A stretch of 64,000 bases of DNA from Carpediemonas membranifera BICM (Eukaryota > Protista > Fornicata), in the NCBI GenBank assembly GCA_019828565.1, contig JAHDYR010000003.1, positions 372,001-436,000 of the forward strand, given 5' to 3'. Position numbers and translations under genes: made by a program. The notes under the pieces are model-generated. The model was not told the DNA's origin, did no database searches, and worked only from the letters and a program-made list of their open reading frames with translations. Of the stretch, positions 16,141 through 61,398 are shown one piece after another (the stretch's first letter is position 1; every line of letters starts with the position of its first letter).

Positions 16141-16197
16141 TGTGCCATTGTTGGCTTGCGCAGGTAGATCTGTTTACATAAACTGCACTGGCTCTCA
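16141..16197. repeat. 3' LTR of element 1 (57 bp)
   Basis: TGTGCCATTG...GGCTCTCA, identical to 20766-20822. Confidence 0.9.
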
Positions 16198-16225
16198 CTT
16201 CCCTCCTCAAGGCGAAGCTAGCCAG

Positions 16226-20773: not shown

Positions 20774-20822
20774 TGTTGGCTTGCGCAGGTAGATCTGTTT
20801 ACATAAACTGCACTGGCTCTCA
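20766..20822. repeat. 5' LTR of element 1 (57 bp), contains the gag ATG
   Basis: Identical to 16141-16197; CAT at 20771-20773 lies inside it. Confidence 0.9.
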
Positions 20823-26297: not shown

Positions 26298-28070
26298 ATG
26301 GCTACAATTGACCATGATTCGGACTTCGATCGCTTCGAAATGATGTCTGAAGAACAGCTCTTGCTTGAAATCATGTAAGACACACACTAGGCTGTTAAGG
26401 AACGAGACCGGTGAGCCAGTCGCATCAGTGGGAATCAACCGAGATGTATCCTGTATGGTGAATCTAATGGACGATCTACAACGGGTTAACACACTATTCC
26501 AGCAGATGGACGCGTTTAGCCAAAGCACGTGGTGGATTCGGGATCGGATGGTGTGGGATGCTGATGGGAGCATCACCACGTCCGACGGCAAGCCCTGGGG
26601 AACGCTGTTACACATCACTCAGAGCTGCAGGAGTTTGTTTGGCTACTCTTCTGAGATGCTCATGGCCCACCCTAATCTATGGATGAACGCGATTGCCAAG
26701 GAGGAATTGAAAGAAATGAAACAATCAGTTGACGAGTTCAACGAGCTGTGCATGTCCCACGACCCTTGCCGGGCTAGCGCTGTCGTCTTCCACAAGCTTG
26801 TGCTGCCCGACAACCAGGTGAAATATGGCAGGTTCCAGCGGAAACCCGTGTTTAACAGCCGCGGCGAGGTCTCCAGAGTTGCTGGAGTTGTTTCAGACGT
26901 CACCTTCTTCATCACAAGACAGAAGCAGCTAGCAGAGTATGAGGGCAAGTTGAAGGCCATCATGGATCATATTGAGGCTTATGTCTTCCTCGTCGATGTT
27001 AGTGCTGAAGGAAAGCCAACAATTTTATTCGTCAGCAAGTTTGTAGAAACGTTGACTGGGTATGAAGGGAGGCAGATTATGGAAGATACGGGCTTTTGGT
27101 CTCGCGTGTTGGTCCATCCTGATGACCGAGCAATGGTCCAAGTCGAAGGGGAAGAACTCATGTCACACAGTCACATGAACGAACAGAGGCAGCAGAGTTA
27201 CCGGATTGTAACTGCAAACGGTGAGGTTAAGAACATACTTGTGAATGTCAACAAGACGCCAGGTGATGAGGACACCATGTTCTTGCTGGGGATTGCTTAC
27301 GACTGTAAGGTCTGACATGGCCAAATCTCCTCCAGCTCCAGGACAAGGAATTGATGGAGCAACAGGCGCACGAGGCACAGCGCATGGAGATCCTGGGCAT
27401 GCTGGCTGATGGAATCGCGAGCGACTTCACGCAGATCCTGCGCGTGATCATTGGCAATGCTAAGAAGATACTGAACGCCACCGACGATGGTGCTGGGGCC
27501 AATGCCGAGCTGAACCTATTGCTCAACGAAGTCATCGACTCGGCTTGGCTGATCACTTCATTTACTGATCAACTCCGAGCATATTCAGGCAAAGGCACGA
27601 TGACCATGACCGCAGTCTCATTGACTTCGATGCTACGGAAGATGAAGCAGTTCATGGAGACACCGAGCAACATCACAGCCACATGGGAGCTCGTCGAAGA
27701 GGGAACATTACCCTTGGTCAGAGGCGACGAGGTCAGGCTCAGCCAGGTCGTCCAGAACCTTTTCACTAACAGCGTAGAGGCCATTGGTAGATGCGAGGGG
27801 ACCATTACAGTGTCGACCGGCACAATGCTGGATGCATCCGGCCACCCGGAGCGTGTATTCGTCCGGATTACGGACACGGGCTGCGGCATGGACTCTGCCA
27901 TCATGGACCGTCTGTTCGAGCCCATGTTCTCGACGAAGTTCACTGGCCGCGGGCTGGGCATGGCCGCCGTCAAGGGCATCGTTGACGCCCACGGCGGGTC
28001 GATCGACGTCGAGTCGGAGGTCGGCGCGGGCACCACGTTCACGGTGTTCTTCCCTGTAGATTCTCAGTGA
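26298..28070 (+). CDS. PAS-domain histidine kinase paralog lacking the phospho-acceptor His (likely intron 27310-27341; 5' part frame-disrupted near 26373)
   Basis: PAS repeats (VHPDDR); H-box reads GIASDFTQIL; intact DTGCGM/FEPMFSTK/GRGLGMA. Removing the 32-nt GT..AG intron gives DCKDKELMEQQAHEAQRME. Confidence 0.7.
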
Positions 28071-40575: not shown

Positions 40576-41595
40576 TCAAAGCTTGAGATACTTGAACTTG
40601 TACGGCACGAGAAGGTTCGCACCAAACTGCTTGAGCAGGTCGATGCCGCGAACCTCAGATGTCCTCAAGGGCATGCGGACAACATGGAAATCCTCCTCGT
40701 ATAGGTCCCGGATCTGTTGCAGGTACTTGCCCTGCATCGAAGCGCGGGCACGGCAATTCTCGCATTGACTGTCGTCGTTGGCATCGAGAAGCTGGTTGAC
40801 AATAATGTGAGCAACATCGATCTCGCGCTTAGTAAGCTCCTGAACGAGCCGCTCGGTCTCATAGAGTGACAGGAACTCTGGGATGCAGACGCAGACGAAC
40901 GAGGTGCGGGCAGGATCCTTAAACTGCGTCTGGACAGTCTGGATGACCTCCAACATCTTGTCTGTGGCCTCGAAAGCACTAGTGATGTCATCCTGATCGA
41001 CACCAGCGACACCGGCGACAGTCCCGATGATCCCACCGGCACTTGAGCGGACAGACTGGAAAAGCTTCAGCGCCTTGATTGCGGCGTCGGGGAAGGACAT
41101 GAGGCGGAGCGTGTGGCCTGTAGGGGCGGTGTCGAACACTATGGTCTCGTAGTCCATGCGGTTGACGGCTACGAGGAGCTGGGCGAAAGACATGATCTCA
41201 TCAATGCCGGGGATGGCGTCGGCATTCCCAGAGAGCATGGAAAGAGCCTTGCTGATAATCTCGGGCTGGTTGCGACCGATTTGCTCAGCAGACTTCTCGC
41301 GGACGACCTGAGCGGGCGACACTTCCATGGCAAAGAGGTTGTCGAACCCCTGAACCTGAACGGGGTCCTTGCCGAAGCGCTGATTGAACGCGTCGGACAG
41401 GTTGTGAGCAGGATCAGTGGAGATAATAAGCACCTTGGACTTCTTGGCCGCCAGCTGGACAGCGAGAGAGCAGGAGGTGGTAGTCTTGCTGTGTGAGCAT
41501 TAGGAGAGGTGAACGAACCCAACACCGCCCTTACCGCCGACAAATATCCATCTCATATCCTTTGAGTCTACTAGTTCCTGAAGAGAAGGCTCCAT
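40576..41595 (-). CDS. GET3: GET3/ASNA1 (ArsA family) ATPase (intron 41489-41518)
   Basis: [11 protein letters not shown]|[50 protein letters not shown], CxxC. Confidence 0.93.
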
Positions 41596-41953
41596 TCCGT
41601 CTATCAATTTGGTTTGTGGGTGCAGGCTAAGAGATGAATCCGGGTGCTATTGAAGGGTCAAACAATGTGTTTATACTGCGCAACACTGCCCTGTCTCCCT
41701 CCTACTCACGTCTTAAGTCGGTAGGGAGATCGTCTTCTCCAGGGCTTCCACAAAGCGTCTTCTTCGTGGACGTCAGCACAGCTGCAAACATCACAATCGC
41801 TCACACGTCGTCTCATTGTCTTCTATTCCACATTAAATTCACTTCTACACTTGTATATGCTGGTAATGGTGTTCATCGTCGGTTCTCATATGTCATCTAG
41901 TTAGCTAGCCGTTGTCATATATGACCAGCTGCACACCTGTAGTGCGCAACAAG

Positions 41954-42882
41954 ATGGAGATATATACGATCAAAGCCTCCATCAAGCAAGCTTTCAGACA
42001 GAACTACACCGAAGAACGGAGAGTGGGGGATTACGCCGCAGCAAAATATCTCTACTCATGCCTGCTGGCCCGGCTCGCGGTTGAATGCTATGCGCAGCGC
42101 CGGCAACTCCCCCTACATGACGCCGACTTCCACAACGGACTGCTCACACATGTACGCGGCGGTCATCCGGGTCAGGCCTACGCGGCCATCGTGCCGCGTC
42201 GTTCAAGAGCACAAGACTAGTGAGTATCAACAACTCTATTAGGTTTGTGCTGGACAACGCGAACGACATTTTCGAGGCTGGAATGCGTAAGTCTTTCCGC
42301 CGAGTGCGCTTTGCGAACCACATCCTTCGCCAGAAGCACTTCGCCCGCTGCGGCCAACAGTTGGCTCGGGAGTTCGGTTGGCGTCGCCACCATCCCATCG
42401 CCACCCCCATTCGCCTGAAAGTCTTCTACGGGAGCTCGGGATTCACCACGCCTGCTGGTATGTTCATTCCTTGCGCGCCATATCGAAAGTTCGCGAGAGA
42501 GATAGTTCCCCTTCTCAAGAGGTATAACATTGTCGTCGATCTTAACATGGTTAACGAGGACCGCACCACCGTCGTCTGCCCTCACTGCCACGCCCCCTAC
42601 AAGCGAGTTCGTCCGCGTGATGACCAGCACGTTCACCCACATCGTGTGATGCTCTGCGAAAATCCACAGTGCCGTGGTGCTCAGTGGCGCGCAACAGTTC
42701 CTGATGCTCTGAATGTTGGTCATCGGGACAAGAGTGCTGCAGAGAACATCCTGTGGCGTTCTCTTGCCACGGAAGATGAGCTCAGTGGCTCTCCGTACAG
42801 TCGCACATCGATCCCGCGCCTTCCAACATCATTCCAGCATCATCAATTGGCTAACCGCCAACATTCGTCTACGGACGGATGA
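41954..42882 (+). pseudogene. Internally deleted Fanzor (eukaryotic TnpB/Cas12-like RuvC nuclease)
   Basis: C-terminal half: FRRVRFANHILRQK (bridge helix), VFYGSSGF...AP, VNEDRTTVVCPHC (RuvC-II + Zn finger), VMLCENPQC, HRDKSAAENI (RuvC-III). N-terminal piece MEIYTIKASIK is out of frame. The RuvC-I DPG region is absent. Confidence 0.8.
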
Positions 42883-43120
42883 TGTTGTGCAGTTTGGCAC
42901 TTTGATCGTTCCTTTCAGGCCCTGTCTGGGAGGTTCGAACAATTTATACTGCGCAACAATCCGGGTTTGACAGTCAGTGCCTCAATAATGCGTGATACTG
43001 CCCGATCTCCTTCTCGCGTGTCACTCCCACTACGAAGGAGATGCATTTTTGTGATGCAACCGTGTCGACTCATCAGCATTGTCCGTCATTGCCGTCTGTC
43101 CTCACAGTATCATCGTATGC
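42876..43120 (+). ncRNA. Putative Fanzor omega-RNA scaffold
   Basis: Overlaps the Fanzor stop. Stems 42876-42893/42948-42963, 42911-42920/42924-42933 (three G-U pairs), 43005-43013/43034-43042 (perfect 9 bp), 42993-43000/43105-43112. Confidence 0.55.
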
Positions 43121-43221
43121 GTGCTGGCCCAACAGTACCTTAGTTTAGTGACGCCAGGCCAGGCAGTACGACCGTGAGTGATGGGGACAGTTACGTGTGC
43201 GATAAATCATCCTTCACGGCC

Positions 43222-44427
43222 ATGTCGGGACTGACTAAAAGGCAGCAGCAAGCGTTAGAGGCATCTATTGCTGCCTACTTGAAAGAAACTGGCTATATGA
43301 AGGCGTTTGAGGCGTTCTCTGAAGAATCCACCGCTGAATTGAGTGAATCGAGGCCAAATGATCTCAAGCGGACTTGGATCGCCTCTACAGCACTCCAAAG
43401 TCGCATGCTCAAGCTTGAAGCTCAGGTTAAAGAGCAGACTGGTACGATCAATGCTCTTCGCTCTGGCAAGGCGCCCACGTCCACCTCCGTTTCTCTCGGG
43501 CCACCCTCGGACTCCCGCAGCCTCATTCAGACCAAGGGCGTGCATAGGGGTCATGTACACGCCATGGCTGTTCATCCTACATATACTCTCGCGGCCACGG
43601 CATCGGCTGATGGCACATTGATTGTCCATGATGTCGGAACGAATGAAGTTGACTCTATACTGAGGGGCCACACCACGGCTGTGTACTCAGTAGCAATGAA
43701 GGGCAATGAGGTGTGGGCAGGGGCCAAGGACGGGTCGATACGACTCTGGGTTTCCGGCAAATTATTCCGGACATTCACAGGCCACACCGGGCCGGTCACA
43801 GCCCTCGTCTCCTTGGCCGATGCGGTAGTGAGCGGGGGAGAGGACGGCACTGTCAGGATCTGGACCAGGGAGGGTCAGGGGGCCTTGGCAGTGGATGAGG
43901 GGCGTGTGTCGGCCATGGCTGTTGAACCTCGTTCGAATCAATTGATTGTAGCACGGGGGCAGGAGGTCGCCATGTATAAGCCGGACCTGGAGAAGATTGG
44001 ATCTTGCCAGGGGGCGTCTCATGTGATATCATGTCTGACGACCACAGCTTTTATTCCTGACCAGAAGATTGTCTCATCTGATTCCTATTCGATCATATCC
44101 GGCGACAGGTCTGGGTCAATGACTGTTTGGAGTCACTCCGGCGGCCTTCCCATCCGTGAGTATCCATCCATCGTCCAAGGATGGTCTGTAGGCCTTGGCG
44201 TCCTGGGTGATGGCCGCACAGTGGTGTGTGTGGGCGATCAGACCAACCAGCTTGTGCAGGTCAACCTTGGGACTGATGTAACAGTGGCCACGTCCCGTCT
44301 GCTATCGTCAGTGAGGGGACATTCGAGTTGCATGGTGGTGGGCCAGTACTTCGATGTTGCCCGGGTCATCGTGGGGACGGCAATGGGGCACGTGCTCGTG
44401 GCTGAGTGCACCGTGCCGCTAGGGTGA
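43222..44427 (+). CDS. LIS1/PAC1-like protein (LisH, coiled coil, WD40)
   Basis: LTKRQQQALEASIAAYLKETGY..AF..F, LKRTWIASTALQSRMLKLEAQV, WD repeats (LRGHT, FTGHT, TVRIW). Confidence 0.75.
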   Translation: MSGLTKRQQQALEASIAAYLKETGYMKAFEAFSEESTAELSESRPNDLKRTWIASTALQSRMLKLEAQVKEQTGTINALRSGKAPTSTSVSLGPPSDSRSLIQTKGVHRGHVHAMAVHPTYTLAATASADGTLIVHDVGTNEVDSILRGHTTAVYSVAMKGNEVWAGAKDGSIRLWVSGKLFRTFTGHTGPVTALVSLADAVVSGGEDGTVRIWTREGQGALAVDEGRVSAMAVEPRSNQLIVARGQEVAMYKPDLEKIGSCQGASHVISCLTTTAFIPDQKIVSSDSYSIISGDRSGSMTVWSHSGGLPIREYPSIVQGWSVGLGVLGDGRTVVCVGDQTNQLVQVNLGTDVTVATSRLLSSVRGHSSCMVVGQYFDVARVIVGTAMGHVLVAECTVPLG

Positions 44428-45140: not shown

Positions 45141-46232
45141 TCCTAAAAAGTAAAGTAAGCGCATTTTCGCGTGTAAGGAGTGGTGAGTGGGTAACTTAAG
45201 CTTCTCGTGTCGACGGGGCTTCTAGCTCTCTCAGCAAGACAAAGCCGCCTCTTCGACGTCCCTCAGCAGCTGCCGACGGACACAAGGGCCACAGTCGCGA
45301 CCAGTCGGACCTAGAGCGGAAAGAGCGCAGTAGTGATAAGCTGGACCAGTCCACCAAGTTCACACCTTCTCTGGACGACCTCGGGGTGGCTGGCAAGGCT
45401 GTCTCCTCCCAACCGCAGCCACTGAGCCCTACACCGCAGCCGACTGGGATCAGCGGGTTCCATGAAGCTATCCCCCCTATGTTGGCCAAGGTCGGTGGCG
45501 AGACTGCAGACCTAGCCCGAATGATTCAACAAGATATATTACAGTTTAACCCTAATGTATTGTTGCCCCAGAATAAAATGACCACATCAAAGTCAGGAGT
45601 CATGGTCAAAATTCAAACGAGGATGACAAGCCCTGTAGAGACCCGTTCGGCAGTAATACTGTTCCATGAACACGGTGTTAGTGCCCCAAAGATCGTGGAA
45701 CATTTAGAGCATGCCATATCCATCTCTACAGTCCGTAGAATCATCAAGGCCCACAGAAAGGCCAGAGAAGGAGCTACAGAGAAGAAGGAGAGGAAGAAGC
45801 GTATAACAAAGTTCGAACGGGACGGAAGAATCCTGCAGACAATCATGATGCGTCACGTGGAGCAAGATGACGTCGTAACAGTTGCTGCGATTAAGAAAGA
45901 GCTGGAACTCGCAACGACGACATCAATATCCTCGGAGACGGTTAGGCTGGCTCTCAAGAAGCTTGGATACAGCTACAAGCTCGGAGACAAGCGTTGGAAG
46001 GAGTGTTCTCCCATCCGCGAGGCGGAGTTCTGGGCGAACTACGCCGTATACGTGCGTGCCAGGCACGCAATGACCGATCTGGTCTTTCTAGACGAGTCTA
46101 GCTTTGATCCACATGACAGCCGACGGTATTCCTGGTTCCCGGCTGGACAGCACGTCGTCAAAACTAGCGGGGGAACTCACGGTAAGAGAATCTCTGTCTG
46201 CGCCGTACTCGGCTACGAGGGCATTCTACACC

Positions 46233-46356
46233 TGTGGTTCGTTTGACGAACTATGTTTACAGAGGAGAAGACTCGACACAATGGTGTCGAGGAGAAACTC
46301 CTTGACTAACTAATATCATATATAAATCTGTGTAATCTTGGGTGAGACCCATGACA
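46233..46356. repeat. LTR of element 2 (outer 3')
   Basis: TGTGGTTCG...CCATGACA. Confidence 0.92.
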
Positions 46357-46949
46357 CTGCCCCTCCATGCCTCAATGAGGCATGACCCCAGACAGCGTGA
46401 GCTTTGACGGCTGGCTACTGCCAGTGGGGGTGAATGTTGGCTCTTGGGGGCCGGTCCTGGTGGGTGCCAACCACCGATCGAGCCCCTTTTTTGCGACCTT
46501 GGCGGGGACACAACAAGAAGCACAACGACGTGCAAAATAGCACGGCTTACAATCGCGCGGTACCGCTGGGTTAGAAGGATCCTACCATAGGGGTTCTGCC
46601 CCTCCTCGGCTTTTCCTCGCCGAAAATCGAAATGTGACGTACCTTAAAATGCTTGGGTGCAGGTTATGGCCATCCAAACACAACGATGGTGAAACACCGC
46701 CCCTTTCCAACTGTTTGCGCCATTAATCAGGTTGGTGCTGAAAATGGCATTTTCAGGCCTCAACGAGGCCTCTACGGCGAGATACGAGCCTTTTTCTTTG
46801 CAGCGTGAATTCACACCACGACTACGCTCAGATAGAGCTACTAAACGACTAAACAACATCAAGACAACAATAAAGAGATCATAACTCCATGTTTGAGCGG
46901 CTTTCCATTCGGGATTGGGATGTTTCATTTTGCACCAATCTTGGTGCAA

Positions 46950-48041
46950 ATGGTGACGGAACATTTGGGGGAATTGGCGCGGTTGCTGCAGCTAGTAGCT
47001 TCTGAGGAATCTGATGATCCTCGAATGCGTTCTCTGCAGCGCCGTTGTGCAACATTGGGCTCCGACATCCAAAATCTGCGATCGTCACGCGTAGCGCCGG
47101 GCAACAGGAGGCGCAAGAGGCTTGTGCGCCGTCCCGTGTGTCACTCAGAGCCCGCTTCGTCGGTAGACGAGAGCTCGAACGATGACAGCGAAGAAGACGA
47201 ATCACCGACTTCTTCGGACGATGCCCCGGGGAATGACAGCTCCCCAACGCTGCCAGACGGCCAGCCCGAAGCCAACCAGCCTGCTGACGTGACTACTACG
47301 GTTCGCCAGCTCTCCCACGCCTCAGGAACGGACGTTTCGGACTTGAACCGGCTGGTCCATCGGCTGTTGGGCGAGCACGCCCATTCGATTGCTCTAACAC
47401 TCACTCCGCTTATGAATTCTCTCCGTGAACAGCGGTTCGAGCGTGAGTTCTCCCTCGAAGACGTCGAACGCCAACTTAAGGGTGTTTCTTGTGCGCGTCG
47501 CGTGTTGCTCGATCTTCAGGCCTTCATGAAACTTGCCCAGGCACTACCTGAACTGGACCTGCATCGCGCCGCCACTTGGCACCATGAGATGGACGCTATC
47601 CGACGCAAGCTCCCTGGTAGGGGTGACAAGTCCCTCTGCCACCTCCTGGCCTTAGCCGTCTTCCCGGGAGTCTATGGTTTGCTTCAAGAGGCTTGCTACC
47701 GGTCCTCTGATATACCGGAGATGGAGAAGCGATTCCGCTTGGTCATGCGGGTATTCAAAGCCCATCCACAGTGGGTACCGGTACTCATGACTACGGGCGA
47801 CGGAGGGCTCCAGTTCACTGATGAGCTCCGTACTTATCGACTGGAACGAGTTGTTGGCAGTCGCAATGGCCCGGGTGGTCGACTCCTCACGTTGAAATGG
47901 GAAGACTACAGGTTTGTGACACGGTCGTACCCGACGCCGGAGTTGCTAGAATTGCCTGAAGTGGTTGCGCACCTTGCTCGTCACGGGGTTGAACCGCGCA
48001 GTACTGGACCTGCCTTCGCTGGTCGGGGCCGCCGACTCTAA
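46950..48041 (+). CDS. Antisense accessory protein of element 2 with a C-terminal chromodomain (copy 1)
   Basis: Non-overlapping ORF of about 363 aa opposite gag-pol; NLS-like RRRKR; acidic Ser-rich tract; YRLERVVGSR..GGRLLTLKWEDY chromodomain. Confidence 0.75.
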   Translation: MVTEHLGELARLLQLVASEESDDPRMRSLQRRCATLGSDIQNLRSSRVAPGNRRRKRLVRRPVCHSEPASSVDESSNDDSEEDESPTSSDDAPGNDSSPTLPDGQPEANQPADVTTTVRQLSHASGTDVSDLNRLVHRLLGEHAHSIALTLTPLMNSLREQRFEREFSLEDVERQLKGVSCARRVLLDLQAFMKLAQALPELDLHRAATWHHEMDAIRRKLPGRGDKSLCHLLALAVFPGVYGLLQEACYRSSDIPEMEKRFRLVMRVFKAHPQWVPVLMTTGDGGLQFTDELRTYRLERVVGSRNGPGGRLLTLKWEDYRFVTRSYPTPELLELPEVVAHLARHGVEPRSTGPAFAGRGRRL

Positions 48042-48084
48042 CAACTAATCAACAATAAATCAGGCGAGATGAGAATAGGAGGGT

Positions 48085-51000
48085 TTACAACCCTTCCGAC
48101 TTGGCCTGAGCAGACGACAAGAAGTCATCCAGAGCAGCAGCGTCTCTAAGGGGAGCGGTATGGCTCCCAGGTAGCCTCGGAGTCTTCAAATCCTTGCCAA
48201 TGGACAAGGTACTCTCTCTTTGAGACCGAGCCCGTGCCACGCGACTTGGATATCCGGTCGATATACCACTCCTCCACGCCGGCGGCCGCCACCTGCTTGA
48301 TCTGTTCCTCTGATAGGGTGCCGGGGACGAACTTTCTGACGCGAGACGCATCGACCCGGATGGGTTCCGCTCCGGGCTGACCTAAGTCTTTCACCATGTA
48401 GGCTACTACAACACCGCTCTGCTTGACAGACGACACTCGTCGCATAGGCCCTCTCCAGCCCGGGGAAAGCTTGTTTGGAGGGCGCGAGGGATATTTCACG
48501 AGCACAAACCGTGACAAGATCTCCGTGCGGGTGGTGGAGGCCTTCGCCAACGCGTCTTCGCGCATGGCCAGGACACGTGCCTTGGCCAATTGTGTAGCGG
48601 CTTCGGCAGCGAGGAGATGCGACGTACGAGCTGCTGCCGTGCTGTTCTCGGTAACGTATAACTTCTCCGGCACCGCCATGTTGCTCCCGAACAGTATCTC
48701 GGCGGGGGAAAGGCGTGTTGGTTGTCTTGGCATGGAATTGACAATAAACTGCGCAACCGGTAAATGCTGACGCCAATTGCCGTTTCTGAGCTCAAACTTC
48801 CTTGCCTTGAGCACTCTCTCGACCATCTGGTTAGCTCTCTCAACCATTCCGTTGGACTGAGGGTGATGCGCGGTGGTAACGTGTGTCTCGAATCCCATGT
48901 CCTGTGCCAGCTTCTTCATGAGAGCATTATTGAACTCGGGACCTCCGTCAGACTGCAACACTCGTGGGCAACCGTAACGCAGCACCCATGTGTTGACGAA
49001 GGCATCCACGGCATCGCGTGCGGTGGTAGACTTGACGGGGGCTAGCTCCGTCCACCTGGGACACATGTCTATCATGACTTGGACGTATTTGTAGCCGTCA
49101 CGCTCCGGGAGCGGACCTAGAGTATCGATTGCCACCCGCTGGAACGGTGCATCCACAGCCGTGTGTAGACCGTCTGTTTTTTTCAACAGGCGGTCTCTCC
49201 AAGACCTGGCAGACAGGGCACTTGGCGACGTAGTCGTAAACGTCACGGCGAGTAACTGAGACACCGGCTTCCCGCAAACGTTCCATGGTTAACCGTCCGG
49301 AGAGGTGGGCGTTACCGAACAGGTGGGCTTTGCTGATCTCATCAACTGACGCTAGCGAGAATACGCGCGACAGACCGTCGGCTCCCCCGTTGTCTAAACC
49401 GGCCACGTGCTTCAATTCGAAATCTAGGTCTGCAATAGAATCGGCCCATCTACGCACCTTAGCGTTACTCGACCTATACATGTACAAGAGGTTGCGATGG
49501 TCGGTCAGGAGCTCGAATCTCTCCCAGGACAAGAACTTCCTCCACTTCTGAAGGGCTGACACAATCGCAAAGGCTTCCTTCTCGCCGACACTCCATCTGG
49601 ATTGGACGTCTGTGAAGGCTTTGGACATATAACACACGGGGCGACCCTCCTGCAGGAGGACAGCCCCGTACCCCACGTCGGATGCGTCAGTCATCACGAC
49701 ATGAGGTTTGGTCGCGTCGAACATCGCCAAAGAATCTGCCGAGCACAAGGCTTCTTTGATATCCGCTAGGGCAGCCTCTAGCTCTTTCTCTGGCACGGCC
49801 GTACGGTTAGTCGTTGCAGACACGAGTGGTTTGGCGCGGGTCGCGTAGTTCGGTACGAAGTCGCGGAAGTAGTTAAAGAATCCGACTAGACCCTGCATCC
49901 CCTTGACTGTAGGCGACAGCTTCATGTCTTGGATATCGTTGACTCTCTCTGGTGAGATCCTGACTGACCCCTCGGAAATGATCCAGCCGAGGAACTCCAC
50001 CTCGGCCCGACCGAACTGACACTTGTCCCTTCCGAGCTGGAGCTTGTACTCACGGGCGCGCTGGAGGACCTTCCTCAGGTTCTCGATGTATTCCTCTGGC
50101 GTGGCACCCATGACGATCACGTCGTCGATGTAAATGATGCAGGCGGTCCCAAGTAGCCCTCTGAACGCGTTTTCCATCGCTCTAAAGAAAGCACCGGCAT
50201 TGCGAAGCCCAAAGGGCATCCGTGTATATTGGAACTGGCCGAAGGTAGTCCTGAACGCGGTATACTTCCGGCAACGCTCAGTAAGGGCGATCTGGTGGTA
50301 GCCGGCAGACAGATCGAGCGTTGCGAACACTCGCTTACCCGAAAGTTGTGTGATAACTTCGTCAATTCGAGGGATGGGGTAATCAAATGGCTCTGTCATG
50401 GTGTTGACTTCACGAAAGTCGACGACAAAGCGAGTCTTGCCACCCTTCTTGGGTACGATGATAGTTGGGCTGGAATAGGCCGATTGACACGCCTGTATAT
50501 ACCTCTTGGCCAGAAGGGTATCGATGTGTTCCTTGACAACCGGGACCTTTGGGGGCGGAACATAGTAGGGACGTACGTGGACGACTCGATCGCCCTTGAG
50601 GCATAGGTCGTAGGGCTCAAGCTTGCTCGGTTCAGTACGGTCACGGAAGAGGTCTTCGTACTCCTTGAGCAGCTTGATCTGCTGGCTCGCGATACCATCG
50701 GGGGAGGGTAAGAGCCTTAGCTTCAAACTTGCTCGGGACGGGAGGATCGTCAGTTGCTTCGCTCTCCGAGTTGCTAGGCTGGGCCATTGAGGGCAGCAGT
50801 CCGATCTCTACCATCTGGCTGTAACCAAAACTGACTTCGTACGCAGTTTTGAGAACGAAAAGCGCGGATCTTCAGCTCGCAGCCACGTGGCGTGAAGGGA
50901 GATGGCCTCAACGTGATCTGCACCGATACGGTGCCTTCAGCTTCTCGTATTCCACCTGCCGTTTGGATGCGTACAGTATCGTGGTTGATCCTGGTAACGG

Positions 51001-52123
51001 CTGGCGAGGAGCACAGATCGGGAGATATCGTGGCACAGTCAGCACCAGAGTCTAGTAAGACCTTCACTTCGGCCTTCTCGATGACTCCATTGACTACAGG
51101 CAACGACCCTCCACCTGACGCAGCGGAAAATAAACACTTCGCCCCGTTTACTGGGGACTTAAAACGGCAGAACTTCTCGAGGTGACCCTGCTTCTTGCAA
51201 ACCGGGCATGTGGCACGATCCCGCGGGCACTTGAAGGATGGATGGCCCGTCTCGCCGCAGTTGTAGCACACCAGCTCGCGCTTGCCCTCTCCTCGTTGGT
51301 TCGGGGCTCTTGCGGCTGGCTTATCCTGATGATGAGGCTTGGCGATTGGCTTGGGGGCGGGATGGGTGGGTTCGTGGTGAAGACCGCGATGGGGTTTGCC
51401 CGACTTAGCCTTGGTTGACGACTGCTTGTCGGTCATTCCGATGGAACGCAGCATGGCACGGGATTCCTCGATATCGCGAGCGATATCAATCACCCGCGGC
51501 ATAGCCTGTTCGAGGGAGAAGCCTTCGGTGAGATCCTTAACCTTGTACTGAACGCGCGAATTATCGGGTAGCTTAAAGCAACGCGCGTAGGTGTCGCAGA
51601 GGATCTCAGAGTCTACCCCGGGATCAACAAGGGAGAGGAGGGTTCTGAACCGTCGGTTCACTCGAACCACCTCCTGCGGAGTAAAGGACGAGATGGAGAG
51701 ACGGAACAAGTCGAGACGGGCAGAAAAACGGGACGGTTGCAGTGCTCTACCGAGCCGCTTGAGGACGCGGTCGTCTTTAGCGAGACGCTTGGCCTTGCGT
51801 TTACGCTTGTGCGTCTTTCGGACAGCTGCGGTTAGGATGAGGGACTGCTGGAGGGGTTGCTCGTCGTCTTTAGGCGTTCCGGCTACTAGTGAACCTTCAT
51901 CGTTCACGGGGACAGAGGCCTCAGCCGAGGGGATGGCTTCAGAGGCCTTGGCGAAGAGGTTAAAGCCGAGAGCGTCAGCGTACCGTTGGACTTCGGTGTC
52001 AATCATGTCGGCAACGTCGGCATCACCGCCTTTGGCTCGGTACTCGGACAAATCCTCGGCGAATCGGACTAATGACTCAATGGTCGTCTTCTTTAGCATA
52101 GGCATATTGTTATAGAGCGTCAT
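48085..52123 (-). CDS. Gag-Pol of element 2, copy 1 (several homopolymer frameshifts)
   Basis: Two CCHC knuckles, LLDSGAD, YIDD, TDAS, HHCC, DDE integrase, EYLVHWQGF chromodomain. Confidence 0.9.
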
Positions 52124-52144
52124 CAAAACGTGGAATACTAGTAT

Positions 52145-52268
52145 TGTGGTTCGTTTGACGAACTATGTTTACAGAGGAGAAGACTCGACACAATGGTGTC
52201 GAGGAGAAACTCCTTGACTAACTAATATCATATATAAATCTGTGTAATCTTGGGTGAGACCCATGACA
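52145..52268. repeat. Shared middle LTR of element 2
   Basis: Identical 124-bp repeat. Confidence 0.92.
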
Positions 52269-52861
52269 CTGCCCCTCCATGCCTCAATGAGGCATGACCC
52301 CAGACAGCGTGAGCTTTGACGGCTGGCTACTGCCAGTGGGGGTGAATGTTGGCTCTTGGGGGCCGGTCCTGGTGGGTGCCAACCACCGATCGAGCCCCTT
52401 TTTTGCGACCTTGGCGGGGACACAACAAGAAGCACAACGACGTGCAAAATAGCACGGCTTACAATCGCGCGGTACCGCTGGGTTAGAAGGATCCTACCAT
52501 AGGGGTTCTGCCCCTCCTCGGCTTTTCCTCGCCGAAAATCGAAATGTGACGTACCTTAAAATGCTTGGGTGCAGGTTATGGCCATCCAAACACAACGATG
52601 GTGAAACACCGCCCCTTTCCAACTGTTTGCGCCATTAATCAGGTTGGTGCTGAAAATGGCATTTTCAGGCCTCAACGAGGCCTCTACGGCGAGATACGAG
52701 CCTTTTTCTTTGCAGCGTGAATTCACACCACGACTACGCTCAGATAGAGCTACTAAACGACTAAACAACATCAAGACAACAATAAAGAGATCATAACTCC
52801 ATGTTTGAGCGGCTTTCCATTCGGGATTGGGATGTTTCATTTTGCACCAATCTTGGTGCAA

Positions 52862-53955
52862 ATGGTGACGGAACATTTGGGGGGAATTGGCGCGGTTGCT
52901 GCAGCTAGTAGCTTCTGAGGAATCTGATGATCCTCGAATGCGTTCTCTGCAGCGCCGTTGTGCAACATTGGGCTCCGACATCCAAAATCTGCGATCGTCA
53001 CGCGTAGCGCCGGGCAACAGGAGGCGCAAGAGGCTTGTGCGCCGTCCCGTGTGTCACTCAGAGCCCGCTTCGTCGGTAGACGAGAGCTCGAACGATGACA
53101 GCGAAGAAGACGAATCACCGACTTCTTCGGACGATGCCCCGGGGAATGACAGCTCCCCAACGCTGCCAGACGGCCAGCCCGAAGCCAACCAGCCTGCTGA
53201 CGTGACTACTACGGTTCGCCAGCTCTCCCACGCCTCAGGAACGGACGTTTCGGACTTGAACCGGCTGGTCCATCGGCTGTTGGGCGAGCACGCCCATTCG
53301 ATTGCTCTAACACTCACTCCGCTTATGAATTCTCTCCGTGAACAGCGGTTCGAGCGTGAGTTCTCCCTCGAAGACGTCGAACGCCAACTTAAGGGTGTTT
53401 CTTGTGCGCGTCGCGTGTTGCTCGATCTTCAGGCCTTCATGAAACTTGCCCAGGCACTACCTGAACTGGACCTGCATCGCGCCGCCACTTGGCACCATGA
53501 GATGGACGCTATCCGACGCAAGCTCCCTGGTAGGGGTGACAAGTCCCTCTGCCACCTCCTGGCCTTAGCCGTCTTCCCGGGAGTCTATGGTTTTGCTTCA
53601 AGAGGCTTGCTACCGGTCCTCTGATATACCGGAGATGGAGAAGCGATTCCGCTTGGTCATGCGGGTATTCAAAGCCCATCCACAGTGGGTACCGGTACTC
53701 ATGACTACGGGCGACGGAGGGCTCCAGTTCACTGATGAGCTCCGTACTTATCGACTGGAACGAGTTGTTGGCAGTCGCAATGGCCCGGGTGGTCGACTCC
53801 TCACGTTGAAATGGGAAGACTACAGGTTTGTGACACGGTCGTACCCGACGCCGGAGTTGCTAGAATTGCCTGAAGTGGTTGCGCACCTTGCTCGTCACGG
53901 GGTTGAACCGCGCAGTACTGGACCTGCCTTCGCTGGTCGGGGCCGCCGACTCTAA
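52862..53955 (+). CDS. Antisense accessory chromodomain protein (copy 2; two homopolymer frameshifts)
   Basis: Same sequence as copy 1 except an extra G near 52880 and an extra T near 53592. Confidence 0.7.
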
Positions 53956-53998
53956 CAACTAATCAACAATAAATCAGGCGAGATGAGAATAGGAGGGT

Positions 53999-56900
53999 TT
54001 ACAACCCTTCCGACTTGGCCTGAGCAGACGACAAGAAGTCATCCAGAGCAGCAGCGTCTCTAAGGGAGCGGTATGGCTCCCAGGTAGCCTCGGAGTCTTC
54101 AAATCCTTGCCAATGGACAAGGTACTCTCTCTTTGAGACCGAGCCCGTGCCACGCGACTTGGATATCCGGTCGATATACCACTCCTCCACGCCGGCGGCC
54201 GCCACCTGCTTGATCTGTTCCTCTGATAGGGTGCCGGGGACGAACTTTCTGACGCGAGACGCATCGACCCGGATGGGTTCCGCTCCGGGCTGACCTAAGT
54301 CTTTCACCATGTAGGCTACTACAACACCGCTCTGCTTGACAGACGACACTCGTCGCATAGGCCCTCTCCAGCCCGGGGAAAGCTTGTTTGGAGGGCGCGA
54401 GGGATATTTCACGAGCACAAACCGTGACAAGATCTCCGTGCGGGTGGTGGAGGCCTTCGCCAACGCGTCTTCGCGCATGGCCAGGACACGTGCCTTGGCC
54501 AATTGTGTAGCGGCTTCGGCAGCGAGGAGATGCGACGTACGAGCTGCTGCCGTGCTGTTCTCGGTAACGTATAACTTCTCCGGCACCGCCATGTTGCTCC
54601 CGAACAGTATCTCGGCGGGGGAAAGGCGTGTTGGTTGTCTTGGCATGGAATTGACAATAAACTGCGCAACCGGTAAATGCTGACGCCAATTGCCGTTTCT
54701 GAGCTCAAACTTCCTTGCCTTGAGCACTCTCTCGACCATCTGGTTAGCTCTCTCAACCATTCCGTTGGACTGAGGGTGATGCGCGGTGGTAACGTGTGTC
54801 TCGAATCCCATGTCCTGTGCCAGCTTCTTCATGAGAGCATTATTGAACTCGGGACCTCCGTCAGACTGCAACACTCGTGGGCAACCGTAACGCAGCACCC
54901 ATGTGTTGACGAAGGCATCCACGGCATCGCGTGCGGTGGTAGACTTGACGGGGGCTAGCTCCGTCCACCTGGGACACATGTCTATCATGACTTGGACGTA
55001 TTTGTAGCCGTCACGCTCCGGGAGCGGACCTAGAGTATCGATTGCCACCCGCTGGAACGGTGCATCCACAGCCGTGTGTAGACCGTCTGTTTTTTTCAAC
55101 AGGCGGTCTCTCCAAGACCTGGCAGACAGGGCACTTGGCGACGTAGTCGTAAACGTCACGGCGAGTAACTGAGACACCGGCTTCCCGCAAACGTTCCATG
55201 GTTAACCGTCCGGAGAGGTGGGCGTTACCGAACAGGTGGGCTTTGCTGATCTCATCAACTGACGCTAGCGAGAATACGCGCGACAGACCGTCGGCTCCCC
55301 CGTTGTCTAAACCGGCCACGTGCTTCAATTCGAAATCTAGGTCTGCAATAGAATCGGCCCATCTACGCACCTTAGCGTTACTCGACCTATACATGTACAA
55401 GAGGTTGCGATGGTCGGTCAGGAGCTCGAATCTCTCCCAGGACAAGAACTTCCTCCACTTCTGAAGGGCTGACACAATCGCAAAGGCTTCCTTCTCGCCG
55501 ACACTCCATCTGGATTGGACGTCTGTGAAGGCTTTGGACATATAACACACGGGGCGACCCTCCTGCAGGAGGACAGCCCCGTACCCCACGTCGGATGCGT
55601 CAGTCATCACGACATGAGGTTTGGTCGCGTCGAACATCGCCAAAGAATCTGCCGAGCACAAGGCTTCTTTGATATCCGCTAGGGCAGCCTCTAGCTCTTT
55701 CTCTGGCACGGCCGTACGGTTAGTCGTTGCAGACACGAGTGGTTTGGCGCGGGTCGCGTAGTTCGGTACGAAGTCGCGGAAGTAGTTAAAGAATCCGACT
55801 AGACCCTGCATCCCCTTGACTGTAGGCGACAGCTTCATGTCTTGGATATCGTTGACTCTCTCTGGTGAGATCCTGACTGACCCCTCGGAAATGATCCAGC
55901 CGAGGAACTCCACCTCGGCCCGACCGAACTGACACTTGTCCCTTCCGAGCTGGAGCTTGTACTCACGGGCGCGCTGGAGGACCTTCCTCAGGTTCTCGAT
56001 GTATTCCTCTGGCGTGGCACCCATGACGATCACGTCGTCGATGTAAATGATGCAGGCGGTCCCAAGTAGCCCTCTGAACGCGTTTTCCATCGCTCTAAAG
56101 AAAGCACCGGCATTGCGAAGCCCAAAGGGCATCCGTGTATATTGGAACTGGCCGAAGGTAGTCCTGAACGCGGTATACTTCCGGCAACGCTCAGTAAGGG
56201 CGATCTGGTGGTAGCCGGCAGACAGATCGAGCGTTGCGAACACTCGCTTACCCGAAAGTTGTGTGATAACTTCGTCAATTCGAGGGATGGGGTAATCAAA
56301 TGGCTCTGTCATGGTGTTGACTTCACGAAAGTCGACGACAAAGCGAGTCTTGCCACCCTTCTTGGGTACGATGATAGTTGGGCTGGAATAGGCCGATTGA
56401 CACGCCTGTATATACCTCTTGGCCAGAAGGGTATCGATGTGTTCCTTGACAACCGGGACCTTTGGGGGCGGAACATAGTAGGGACGTACGTGGACGACTC
56501 GATCGCCCTTGAGGCATAGGTCGTAGGGCTCAAGCTTGCTCGGTTCAGTACGGTCACGGAAGAGGTCTTCGTACTCCTTGAGCAGCTTGATCTGCTGGCT
56601 CGCGATACCATCGGGGAGGGTAAGAGCCTTAGCTTCAAACTTGCTCGGGACGGGAGGATCGTCAGTTGCTTCGCTCTCCGAGTTGCTAGGCTGGGCCATT
56701 GAGGGCAGCAGTCCGATCTCTACCATCTGGCTGTAACCAAAACTGACTTCGTACGCAGTTTTGAGAACGAAAGCGCGGATCTTCAGCTCGCAGCCACGTG
56801 GCGTGAAGGGAGATGGCCTCAACGTGATCTGCACCGATACGGTGCCTTCAGCTTCTCGTATTCCACCTGCCGTTTGGATGCGTACAGTATCGTGGTTGAT

Positions 56901-58034
56901 CCTGGTAACGGCTGGCGAGGAGCACAGATCGGGAGATATCGTGGCACAGTCAGCACCAGAGTCTAGTAAGACCTTCACTTCGGCCTTCTCGATGACTCCA
57001 TTGACTACAGGCAACGACCCTCCACCTGACGCAGCGGAAAATAAACACTTCGCCCCGTTTACTGGGGACTTAAAACGGCAGAACTTCTCGAGGTGACCCT
57101 GCTTCTTGCAAACCGGGCATGTGGCACGATCCCGCGGGCACTTGAAGGATGGATGGCCCGTCTCGCCGCAGTTGTAGCACACCAGCTCGCGCTTGCCCTC
57201 TCCTCGTTGGTTCGGGGCTCTTGCGGCTGGCTTATCCTGATGATGAGGCTTGGCGATTGGCTTGGGGGCGGGATGGGTGGGTTCGTGGTGAAGACCGCGA
57301 TGGGGTTTGCCCGACTTAGCCTTGGTTGACGACTGCTTGTCGGTCATTCCGATGGAACGCAGCATGGCACGGGATTCCTCGATATCGCGAGCGATATCAA
57401 TCACCCGCGGCATAGCCTGTTCGAGGGAGAAGCCTTCGGTGAGATCCTTAACCTTGTACTGAACGCGCGAATTATCGGGTAGCTTAAAGCAACGCGCGTA
57501 GGTGTCGCAGAGGATCTCAGAGTCTACCCCGGGATCAACAAGGGAGAGGAGGGTTCTGAACCGTCGGTTCACTCGAACCACCTCCTGCGGAGTAAAGGAC
57601 GAGATGGAGAGACGGAACAAGTCGAGACGGGCAGAAAAACGGGACGGTTGCAGTGCTCTACCGAGCCGCTTGAGGACGCGGTCGTCTTTAGCGAGACGCT
57701 TGGCCTTGCGTTTACGCTTGTGCGTCTTTCGGACAGCTGCGGTTAGGATGAGGGACTGCTGGAGGGGTTGCTCGTCGTCTTTAGGCGTTCCGGCTACTAG
57801 TGAACCTTCATCGTTCACGGGGACAGAGGCCTCAGCCGAGGGGATGGCTTCAGAGGCCTTGGCGAAGAGGTTAAAGCCGAGAGCGTCAGCGTACCGTTGG
57901 ACTTCGGTGTCAATCATGTCGGCAACGTCGGCATCACCGCCTTTGGCTCGGTACTCGGACAAATCCTCGGCGAATCGGACTAATGACTCAATGGTCGTCT
58001 TCTTTAGCATAGGCATATTGTTATAGAGCGTCAT
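53999..58034 (-). CDS. Gag-Pol of element 2, copy 2 (one frameshift at the A7 run near 55093)
   Basis: 1008-aa Gag-PR-RT-RH-HHCC ORF plus a 392-aa integrase-chromodomain ORF. Confidence 0.92.
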
Positions 58035-58055
58035 CAAAACGTGGAATACTAGTAT

Positions 58056-58179
58056 TGTGGTTCGTTTGACGAACTATGTTTACAGAGGAGAAGACTCGAC
58101 ACAATGGTGTCGAGGAGAAACTCCTTGACTAACTAATATCATATATAAATCTGTGTAATCTTGGGTGAGACCCATGACA
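58056..58179. repeat. LTR of element 2 (outer 5')
   Basis: Identical 124-bp repeat. Confidence 0.92.
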
Positions 58180-58613
58180 CACCGAGCGCTCACTACTGGG
58201 ACCTACAAGGCGGAGGACTTTATGCCTGTGTTACACAAGACGCTCAGCCTCATCGCCGGACAGCACAAGGTGCTTGTCCTAGACAACGCCAGGAGTCACC
58301 GAACAACAGATACCACACTGTATGAGCGGCTGTCTGACCTACGGTGTCGGATTTATCTTCCTTCCAGGTTATGCTCCGCATCTCAACCCTATTGAGCTTG
58401 TCTTCGGTGCGATCAAGCGGAAACTGGCCGCCATCAAGCCACCTGGCGAGAATCATGCGGAGTATATCATCCGGTTGTTCGATCAGCTCCACAAGTTCTT
58501 CGATGTGCCTGGAGCGTACCGCCACTGTGGCTTCTTCTAAATGTGCATTTTGTGTCAGCAAGCAACGGGTTCAGCTATGGCGAACTAAAGCTCATTGAAA
58601 CATAGGAGAACAT

Positions 58614-58985: not shown

Positions 58986-59023
58986 AAAATCAACCGTTTT
59001 AAGCGCTTAATTCGGTTGATTTT
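58986..59023. promoter_or_regulatory. 38-bp near-perfect palindrome upstream of transposase 2
   Basis: AAAATCAACCG-tt-TTAAGCGCTTAA-tt-CGGTTGATTTT, ending 23 nt before ATG 59047. Confidence 0.5.
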
Positions 59024-59046
59024 CGCTCAAAAGTCAGCTTTGCGCA

Positions 59047-61067: not shown

Positions 61068-61296
61068 AGTTCTGGAATGTCTTTAAACTGCTGGAGATGA
61101 TGTGGTCATTTTATTCTGGGGCAACAATACATTAGGCCGATGTTGTCGGGTTAACTACTGCTAAGCGGCTGCTGAAGGAGGCTGTGGTAATGCCCGTCAA
61201 GTATCCAGCCCTATTTGACTCTGTCCTGCAGCCGTGGAGGGGCGTGCTCCTCTTTGGTCCAAGTGGAACTGGTGTTTGTACCCATATTTTTATTAG

Positions 61297-61329
61297 TAAT
61301 TTATTATTAATTTATTATTAATTTATTAT
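61297..61329. repeat. Three tandem copies of TAATTTATTAT within the katanin intron
   Basis: Read directly from the sequence. Confidence 0.85.
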
Positions 61330-61398
61330 ACAGAAGACCTTGCTCGCCAAGGCCGTTGCTACAGAGTGCCAGACGACATTCTTCAACTGCAAGGCCTC

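What the first reader, a model, noticed from the sequence alone, without database searches (positions are those of the whole stretch)
41954..43120. Fanzor (eukaryotic RNA-guided nuclease) relic with a G-U-rich structured 3' RNA
Seen: RuvC-II E (NEDRTT), CxxC/CxxxxC Zn finger and RuvC-III D (RDKSAAENI) are present. The N-terminal piece is joined out of frame near 42190-42200 and RuvC-I is missing. Four or more nested stems start at the stop codon, one with three G-U pairs, which points to RNA-level rather than DNA-level pairing. No transposase or TIR pair is evident, and the locus sits between divergent GET3 and LIS1-like genes. Known: Fanzor/TnpB omega-RNAs are encoded at the 3' end of the ORF with the guide drawn from the flank. 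Inference: this lineage hosts a Fanzor1-type family. This copy is nuclease-dead but could still supply guide RNA in trans. The apparent scaffold (about 240 nt) is long.
Basis: partly seen in the sequence, partly recalled or inferred. Interest (0 to 1): 0.78.

Follow-up and report, generated by a model that had tools for sequence, protein, structure and literature searches.

The report
Gutted Fanzor1 transposon with short scaffold
This is an internally deleted 1.3-kb copy of a young, multi-copy jumping element of the protist Carpediemonas that carries a Fanzor1 (RNA-guided DNA nuclease) gene; the copy has lost a catalytic residue, but its end is predicted to fold into a roughly 100-nucleotide guide-RNA scaffold (not 240) that intact sister enzymes would likely be able to use.

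Summary
The protein motifs, frame break and G-U stem are real, but the borders differ. The locus is one copy of a Fanzor1 family with 48 retrieved gene models on 31 Carpediemonas membranifera contigs (mostly 90-98% identical); two further families are about 45% identical. The element spans 41644-42958, with a 6-bp target duplication (ATCCGG), no terminal inverted repeats and a direct repeat near both ends. A deletion of about 325 codons at 42193/42194 removed most of REC, the WED TDG motif and the RuvC-I DPG, which sister copies keep. Family conservation stops at 42958, so the predicted scaffold is about 97 nt (8-bp UACG hairpin plus a 76-nt stem; z -5.5 for the post-stop part), as in known Fanzor1 RNAs. 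Stems beyond 42965 lie outside. This copy also lacks 4 scaffold nucleotides. Open leads: no known mobilising transposase, a flank motif mirroring the element end 13-24 bp upstream of three insertions, a shortened post-RuvC-I segment, and inter-family chimeras. New member of a known kind.

The parts
41644..42958 (+). Whole non-autonomous element (1315 bp), termini GTG...ACA, no terminal inverted repeats
   Evidence: Sister-copy contigs diverge before 41644 and behind 42958/42959; TIR test negative
41638..41643 (+). Left target-site duplication ATCCGG (5-9 bp if the borders are shifted by 1-2 nt)
   Evidence: Exact repeat at both independently mapped borders
42959..42964 (+). Right target-site duplication ATCCGG
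41620..41631 (+). Flank motif GYGCA-NNN-TAAR, an inverted look-alike of the element's own end motif, 13-24 bp upstream of the left border; same register in two other left flanks
   Evidence: Loose ends counted by hand, statistics; only 2 other matches in the window against 1.1 expected
41661..41685 (+). Left subterminal direct repeat of the right end (16 nt exact in this copy: 41670-41685 = 42943-42958; about 25 nt against sister right ends); family-wide
   Evidence: sister proteins P0020 and P0060 translate through it
41954..42194 (+). Fanzor1 N-terminal piece, codons 1-80; the frame runs on 8 codons to TAG 42218-42220
42193..42194 (+). Deletion junction with 2-nt microhomology; about 325 codons lost (most of REC, WED TDG motif, RuvC-I DPG)
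42193..42882 (+). Fanzor1 C-terminal piece (229 aa): long helix, RuvC-II E 42556-42558, Zn finger 42577-42672, RuvC-III D 42727-42729; 94-97% identical to most sister proteins
42862..42881 (+). Predicted SL1 of the omega-RNA: 8-bp stem with C(UACG)G loop overlapping the last codons
   Evidence: known Fz1 SL1 has 7 bp (PMC11423790 section 5)
42883..42958 (+). Predicted SL2: 76-nt hairpin closing on the last base of the element; three G-U pairs in the inner stem; 4 nt missing after 42942 relative to sister copies
42959..42980 (+). Inferred guide region (flank-derived; whether it starts at or after the duplicated 6 bp is not known)
   Evidence: Variable among copies; position by analogy with PMC10432273 and PMC10711439
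42965..43120 (.).
   Evidence: 2 of 1000 shuffles and 4 of 1496 background windows score as high
40576..41595 (-). Host GET3/ArsA ATPase with a 30-nt intron near 41490-41519
43222..44427 (+). Host LisH(PAC1)-WD40 gene (LIS1-like)

Best explanation
The locus is an internally deleted 1315-bp copy of a young multi-copy Carpediemonas transposon carrying a Fanzor1 gene; it has lost the RuvC-I aspartate, and its right end is predicted to template a roughly 97-nt omega-RNA scaffold plus a flank-derived guide that an intact sister Fanzor would likely load. Shown: family membership, copy number, borders, 6-bp duplication, deletion, loss of RuvC-I, transcription of the family through its right end into flanks. 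Inferred: (1) the copy arose by a microhomology deletion, as did many differently deleted sisters, in a host reported to lack NHEJ; (2) it was or is moved in trans by a transposase not encoded in it; (3) full-length copies (about 632-635 aa) make an active nuclease; (4) the processed RNA (SL1 + SL2 + about 15 nt of flank) would direct that nuclease to the element-free version of this GET3/LIS1 intergenic site, and homologous repair from the occupied chromatid or allele would restore or spread the copy (restorative homing). My odds: Fanzor1 relic 0.95; borders and short scaffold 0.85-0.9; this copy gives a working guide in trans about 0.45.
For: 48 named C. membranifera gene models of this family on 31 contigs (distinguished by length), mostly 90-98% identical; 14 of the 49 family proteins scored carry D, E and D in one frame. 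Carpediemonas profile A1 matches a profile of 13 metagenomic/viral proteins at probability 98.2%, E 2.7e-14, and that profile hits PpFz1, SpuFz1, GtFz1 at E 7e-65, 2e-64, 6e-47 but Fanzor2 L79 only at 0.0045. Foldseek's top hits for two predicted models are SpuFz1 (E 6e-4) and PpFz1 (E 3e-4). ESM Atlas nearest clusters are 618-735-aa DUF8286/TNB proteins at 0.98. A family protein (KAG9392881.1) is in the Fanzor HMM hit table of PMC10711439. Borders from sister contigs coincide with an exact duplication and with the last pair of the hairpin. SL1+SL2 layout and length match SpuFz1/PpFz1. The four runs all lack the GET3 intron, so they are RNA, and they hold the family sequence; two X2 contigs run from the element end on for 255 or more unlike letters.
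Against: None of the 49 family proteins scored spans the N-terminus and all three catalytic residues, so an intact gene is not shown. Direct searches are weak: Pfam TNB E 0.015-0.35, below cut-off, no PDB sequence hit for P0011 or A1; models have pLDDT 48 and 66 and VIA Z of 10.0 for SpuFz1 is tied with Cas12f, Cas12p and Fanzor2. No compensatory change was seen: 42889 G>A, common in sister contigs, breaks a pair. This copy lacks 4 nt, losing a 5-bp helix (-51.9 against -59.8 kcal/mol). No TAM is visible next to the duplication in three left flanks. Borders rest on a handful of contigs from at most 3 samples, and the duplication length on this one locus.
Confidence: 0.65

Rival explanations
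1. Same identity and borders, but this copy is inert debris: its RNA is not processed or loaded, or the family no longer has an active nuclease, so nothing uses the guide.
For: 4-nt scaffold deletion; 0 of 49 family proteins scored are full length; many sister copies carry frameshifts and different deletions; unpaired substitutions in sister scaffolds.
Against: [quoted passage not shown]
Confidence: 0.27
2. One reading: the omega-RNA scaffold is about 240 nt (42880-43120) and the guide lies beyond 43120.
For: The whole 246 nt folds at z -3.3; a 9-bp stem lies at about 43005-43042; GtFz1 RNA reaches 150 nt.
Against: The signal comes from the first 79 nt (z -5.5) while 42959-43120 gives z -1.8 on +; sister copies diverge at 42958/42959; the target duplication sits at 42959-42964.
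Confidence: 0.05
3. A domesticated, spliced mini-Fanzor: a 20- or 23-nt GT-AG intron (42201-42220 or 42198-42220) restores the frame and gives a 301-302-aa nuclease-dead RNA-binding regulator between two divergent host genes.
For: Host introns are short (30 nt) and such introns are formally possible.
Against: The candidate intron is ordinary coding sequence in sister copies; the break is explained by the deletion; the product would lack WED and most of REC; identity to sisters is that of a recent copy.
Confidence: 0.03

Closest known systems
Spizellomyces punctatus Spu-1 / SpuFz1 and its ghost loci (PMC10432273; PDB 8gkh)
   Same: Fanzor1 fold and motifs; multi-copy with full, partial and gene-less copies and no transposase inside; about 75-80 nt between stop codon and element end; scaffold ends at the element end, guide from flank; ghost RNAs usable by the intact enzyme.
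   Different: Spu-1 has 30-33-bp TIRs and TA duplications; this element has no TIR, a 6-bp duplication and a subterminal direct repeat. Protein identity 15-20% in structural alignments. SL1 is predicted inside the coding end, more like GtFz1.
Parasitella parasitica PpFz1 and Guillardia theta GtFz1 (PMC11423790; PDB 9cf0-9cf3, 9cer)
   Same: SL1 of 7-8 bp followed by SL2 (PpFz1); RNA overlapping the C-terminal codons and no inverted repeats (GtFz1, PMC10432273).
   Different: No FRI insertion; instead the segment from RuvC-I D to the conserved K is 44 aa in all three Carpediemonas families against 57-84 aa in 11 sampled Fanzor1-like proteins, and last Zn cysteine to RuvC-III D is 19-27 aa against 7 in most.
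TIR-less Fanzor1 elements MCi-2 and MCi-5 of Mucor circinelloides and CRe-1/2/3 of Chlamydomonas (PMC3627910)
   Same: Fanzor1 in elements without TIRs but with target duplications (MCi-5: putative 6 bp; MCi-2: 11-12 bp with a sequence pattern); frequent internal deletions; unclear mobiliser.
   Different: Those carry Harbinger or Crypton fragments or Helitron2 ends; none is described, in the sections read, with a subterminal direct repeat or an upstream motif mirroring the end.
Replitrons (PMC10288648)
   Same: Short direct repeats at or near both termini, a right-end hairpin, duplications that include an RG target in Chlamydomonas (two of the left flanks here end in GG); the host genome holds Geminivirus-like Rep and Helitron genes (PMC8516963).
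   Different: No Rep gene in this copy; the left repeat starts 17-26 bp inside; other left flanks do not end in RG; the Rep genes were reported as unexpressed; no Fanzor-carrying Replitron is described in the passages read.

Membership tests
Fanzor (PMC10711439 signatures) | DPG motif at RuvC-I | tested here: met
   GFDPG in sister proteins of all three families; deleted in this copy
Fanzor (PMC10711439 signatures) | Catalytic E six residues before the first CxxC | tested here: met
   E-DRTTVV-CPHC in the window and sisters
Fanzor (PMC10711439 signatures) | RuvC-III D 4-8 residues after the last Zn cysteine (search pattern) | tested here: not met
   D is present and aligns with RD of all outgroups, but 19-27 residues away; an insertion, also 24 in P0081
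Fanzor1 | TDG motif in WED | tested here: met
   STDGV/KTDGV; T214 D215 G216 nearly invariant in alignment A4; deleted in this copy
Fanzor1 | Sequence affinity to Fanzor1 over Fanzor2/TnpB | tested here: met
   Two-step profile link; no tree was built
Fanzor1 | Length 600-700 aa | tested here: inconclusive
   About 632-635 aa by arithmetic on overlapping proteins; 0 of 49 is full length
Fanzor1 | REC2 pair of kinked helices | tested here: inconclusive
   The segment after the RuvC-I strands is 13-40 aa shorter than in outgroups and modelled as a low-confidence loop
Fanzor1 | Carried by a eukaryotic mobile element | tested here: met
   Multi-copy, sharp borders, target duplication; superfamily unresolved
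Fanzor1 omega-RNA | Conserved stem-loops (SL1, SL2) up to the element end, variable sequence after it | tested here: met
   Predicted folds and divergence at 42958/42959; no covariation seen
Fanzor1 omega-RNA | Discrete small RNA extending 14-15 nt into the flank and bound by the protein | not testable with these tools
   Only assembled contigs are available
Fanzor1 | TAM-dependent, RNA-guided dsDNA cleavage | not testable with these tools
   This copy cannot, lacking RuvC-I; sisters untested
Fanzor2 / IS607-type | Serine recombinase partner, no target duplication, close to TnpB | tested here: not met
   No second ORF in the element, 6-bp duplication, weak link to Fanzor2 L79
Tc1/mariner vehicle (Spu-1 type) | TIRs and TA duplication | tested here: not met
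   the DDE_3 ORF at 45200-46243 lies beyond a host gene
Replitron vehicle | Direct repeats at or near termini, right-end hairpin, RG target | tested here: inconclusive
   Repeat and hairpin present; RG in 2 left flanks, not in the X1/X4 consensus flanks
Replitron / Helitron vehicle | HUH transposase gene sharing these ends | not testable with these tools
   No genome held
Helitron2 vehicle | 8-15-bp asymmetric inverted repeats and 5' hairpin | tested here: inconclusive
   No inverted pair of 10 nt or more joining the two ends among the 20 listed; 8-9-bp pairs not examined
Dada vehicle | Insertion into tRNA, rRNA or snRNA genes | tested here: not met
   No tRNA in the window, no Rfam match at E<=5 in 41500-43300; the 6-7-bp duplication and lack of TIRs in Dada are recalled, not read here

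The most novel reading that the evidence does not exclude
Carpediemonas carries three or more coexisting, deeply divergent Fanzor1 families with a shortened post-RuvC-I helix, riding a new kind of TIR-less vehicle that inserts a fixed 12 bp downstream of a target motif mirroring its own end, stacks copies at reused sites, and swaps target-reading halves and nuclease halves between families at the RuvC-I motif. In a host reported to lack NHEJ and the origin recognition complex and proposed to start replication by recombination at RNA:DNA hybrids, dozens of transcribed guides would give a genome-wide set of programmed R-loops and breaks that drive homing and could seed replication.
Probability: 0.15. 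Interest if true: 0.8.

Novelty: new member of a known kind. Interest (0 to 1): 0.42.

Why it matters
The copy itself is ordinary transposon debris. The family is more useful: it is a young, transcribed Fanzor1 lineage in Metamonada, about 20-25% identical to the nearest other proteins found, with a compact predicted scaffold whose borders are now mapped, so it can be put straight into a TAM screen. Dozens of copies with different flanks give a natural test of restorative homing in a eukaryote without NHEJ. The mobiliser is unknown, and the mirrored flank motif, if it holds across all loci, would point to sequence-directed insertion by an undescribed vehicle.

Tried and rejected
No whole genome is held, so copy-level alignments, covariation and paired flanks could not be made. 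Self-BLAST found no second copy in the window. Rfam: no match. tRNA scan: none. Sigma-70/terminator scan: at chance and irrelevant for a eukaryote. Metagenome scan with the 25-nt end repeat: 0 hits; with alignment A1: 0 of 136 candidates in metagenomes, 0 of 57 in prokaryote genomes, 0 of 23 in viral contigs. No listed run is on record as RNA; RNA status was inferred from the missing intron. No laid contig covers 42967-43200 or bridges this copy's junction; such holes prove nothing and are not used as evidence. Run X7 laid nothing. PDB sequence searches with P0011 and A1 found no relative; the wide VIA search with the 539-aa model was dominated by helical bundles. A frame-restoring intron was considered and rejected. 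A 7-bp duplication always starting with A was rejected because the X2 left flank has C there; 8-9-bp readings were disfavoured because GT at 41644-41645 is shared by several copies while two right flanks lack GT at the matching place. The flank motif as a general host promoter element was not supported: the excess came partly from a duplicated LTR element, and one search leaves 2 matches outside the locus, both inside long ORFs. The left direct repeat as a locus-specific leftover stub (lead from e1-552842) was rejected because sister copies share it. The Tc1/IS630-type ORFs at 45200 and 59020 were rejected as mobilisers (no TIR, no TA). tblastn of all stored proteins against 42959-43230 gave only chance-level matches. 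Guide candidates have no match above 12 of 15 elsewhere in the window. No tree was built and no complex was predicted.

Full report
Observation. The C-terminal piece alone scores only E 0.015 against Pfam Cas12f1-like TNB, below the cut-off, so identity had to come from relatives. No whole genome is held.

Family. The C-terminal piece finds near-identical proteins, nearly all annotated in Carpediemonas membranifera. Cluster look-ups and profile searches gave 92 stored proteins. Of these, 50 belong to this family (A): 48 with C. membranifera locus tags on 31 contigs of distinct length, one unnamed, and one EukProt entry labelled Copromyxa protea at 98% identity, which I take as likely contamination. 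About 18 and 17 others form families B and C, 43-48% identical to A and to each other. Adjacent tags may be pieces of one copy, so loci number somewhat fewer. Of 49 family-A proteins scored for motifs (P0006 fell under the identity filter), 14 carry D, E and D in one frame and none also has the N-terminus. Overlapping proteins give a full length of about 632-635 aa.

Fanzor1 identity. Sister proteins have TDG, GFDPG, E six residues before CxxC and RD, the signatures given in PMC10711439 (passages). A profile of eight Carpediemonas proteins found 36 representatives at E<=0.001 among 1.84 billion; four distant ones are Fanzor-like (three of 646-751 aa and one fragment), two are spurious. One of them hits SpuFz1 at E 4e-4 and pulled 12 viral loci. 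The Carpediemonas profile matches the profile of these 13 outside proteins at 98.2%, E 2.7e-14, and that profile hits PpFz1, SpuFz1 and GtFz1 at E 7e-65 to 6e-47 against 0.0045 for a Fanzor2. Direct PDB sequence searches found nothing. AlphaFold models are poor to fair (pLDDT 48 and 66); Foldseek ranks SpuFz1 and PpFz1 first and VIA gives SpuFz1 Z 10.0, rmsd 9.0, 211 aligned, tied within 1 with Cas12f, Cas12p and Fanzor2. The ESM Atlas agrees. Two family-wide departures: RuvC-I D to the conserved K is 44 aa in A, B and C against 57-84 in 11 outside proteins, and the last Zn cysteine to RuvC-III D is 19-27 aa against 7 in most.

The break. Contigs of sister copies leave the window after 42194 into the sequence QSLDTLPMWR and join it before 42193 from KTPSFGFDMT; tblastn agrees. 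The two sides share GC. About 325 codons are gone, including the WED TDG motif and RuvC-I. Other gene models and contigs show different internal deletions. The host is reported to lack NHEJ and to keep alternative end joining (PMC8516963, passages), which fits.

Borders. Sister contigs diverge before 41644 (2 in X1, 3 in X4; X2/X3 contigs also begin there) and behind 42958 or 42959, or carry the end motif followed by unlike sequence (three copies); proteins P0005, P0039, P0048 and P0049 read through the end and diverge or stop at the same place. At these borders ATCCGG is repeated exactly; shifting borders by 1-2 nt gives 5-9 bp. There is no TIR. The last 16 nt are repeated directly at 41670-41685, about 25 nt against sister ends, and sisters share this left copy. 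All four GCGCAACA octamers of the 64-kb window lie in the element on the + strand (noticed after the fact).

The RNA. 42880-42958 folds into one hairpin closing on the element's last base: -34.6 kcal/mol, z -5.5, 0 of 300 shuffles, against -20.8 on the minus strand, and stronger than all 256 background windows. With DNA parameters the strand gap for 42862-42958 is smaller (-19.0 against -14.4; RNA -45.9 against -25.3). An 8-bp stem with a UACG loop lies at 42862-42881. Known Fanzor1 RNAs have a 7-bp SL1 and, in SpuFz1 and PpFz1, one further stem before the guide (PMC11423790 section 5); SpuFz1 has a 75-nt scaffold and 14-15-nt guide, and ghost loci supply working RNAs (PMC10432273, passages). 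So the predicted scaffold is about 97 nt, or 112 with a weak upstream stem. Sister copies have four more bases after 42942 that complete a 5-bp helix (-59.8 against -51.9). Against: no compensatory change was seen, and 42889 G>A in X1, X2 and X6 contigs breaks a pair. The stems beyond 42965 are flank (z -1.8 on +, -3.0 on -) and weakly resemble the left end (2 of 1000 shuffles, 4 of 1496 background windows), perhaps an older relic at a reused site.

Expression. All four runs lack the 30-nt GET3 intron, so they are RNA; they amount to at most two samples, and X2 and X3 have nearly the same figures. They hold the family from 41644 to 42959, and two X2 contigs continue 255 or more letters into other flanks. 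This shows family transcription through the right end, not level, strand, a small RNA, or expression of this copy.

Flank motif. The window's left flank and that of an X2/X3 contig agree at 11 of 12 positions at 41620-41631 but at 0 of 7 just after and 3 of 11 just before; the X1 consensus of two contigs has a similar motif in the same register. The motif matches the reverse complement of the element end at 8, 8 and 10 of 12. Three flanks and a post hoc motif make this a lead. It lies at the start of GET3 transcripts, so a host element is not excluded, though the window shows no general enrichment.

Mechanism. Shown: a non-autonomous, RuvC-I-less copy with both ends. Inferred: movement in trans; a flank-guided RNA loaded by an intact sister enzyme; cutting of the empty site and repair from the occupied copy, as reviewed for OMEGA systems (PMC13565253, passages). 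The vehicle is unassigned. Direct repeats and a right-end hairpin recall Replitrons (PMC10288648, passages), and the host has Geminivirus-like Rep and Helitron genes reported as unexpressed; a 6-bp duplication and ACA end recall IS481/IS3EU-like DDE elements, which have TIRs (PMC10045372, passages); TIR-less Fanzor1 elements with duplications are already known (PMC3627910, passages and sections 9 and 12).

Prior record. No main text holds Fanzor with Carpediemonas or Metamonada; the eight papers listed for Fanzor/Giardia/Trichomonas had no Fanzor mention. KAG9392881.1 (P0018) is in Table S2 of PMC10711439. Supplements of PMC10530073 (2 files), PMC10432273 (9 files, one scan unread) and PMC8516963 (10 files, one scan unread) gave no hit; PMC10530073 main text was seen as passages; PMC3706591 only as a listing. 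Repbase and subscription journals were not searchable, so the element may be catalogued there.

Verdict. Observation partly confirmed; interpretation partly supported. New member of a known kind, interest 0.42; the bold reading has probability 0.15 and interest 0.8.

Noticed in passing
P0058 (J8273_6085) and P0091 (J8273_4602): Two gene models on different contigs are family B (96%) before the GFDP motif and family C after it (98% over 253 aa in P0058; 80% with a frameshifted tail in P0091); P0050 switches from B to A at the same motif. Natural half-swaps between Fanzor families, or assembly or annotation chimeras.
   Followed up: partly
window 46233-58180: Two tandem, 99.9% identical 5.9-kb Ty3/Gypsy (chromodomain) elements sharing 125-bp LTRs; each holds an extra antisense ORF of unknown family (46845-48041, no Pfam hit).
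   Followed up: no
window 16140-20822: Chromodomain Gypsy element with one 1532-aa ORF and very short identical direct repeats (58 bp); an inverted-repeat hairpin lies just beyond 20824.
   Followed up: no
window 45200-46246 and 59020-60018: Two Tc1/IS630-type DDE_3 transposase ORFs; the first is cut at about 46233 by the Gypsy insertion, and 45551-45589 matches 61098-61136 inverted.
   Followed up: no
window 61322-63998: A third, more distant Gypsy-like gag-pol running off the window end.
   Followed up: no
window 3820-6666 (-) and 26344-28067 (+): PAS/histidine-kinase genes of bacterial type in a metamonad (for the first; the second from its translation).
   Followed up: no
window 42965-43110: Flank resembles the element's left end (26 of 42 identities plus a similar hairpin); possible decayed relative at the same target site.
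   Followed up: partly
P0073 (J8273_1954): A family C fragment is preceded by nine residues translated from the family A right-end hairpin, suggesting nesting of one family in another.
   Followed up: no
P0003 (EukProt, labelled Copromyxa protea): 98% identical to family A; likely cross-contamination rather than transfer.
   Followed up: no
window 41671-42563, 41813-42396, 42194-42462 (joints): RNA contigs show further internally deleted sister copies, some lacking most of the ORF (ghost-like).
   Followed up: partly
window 46251-46329: Strongest background fold in the window (z -4.6), at the Gypsy LTR.
   Followed up: no
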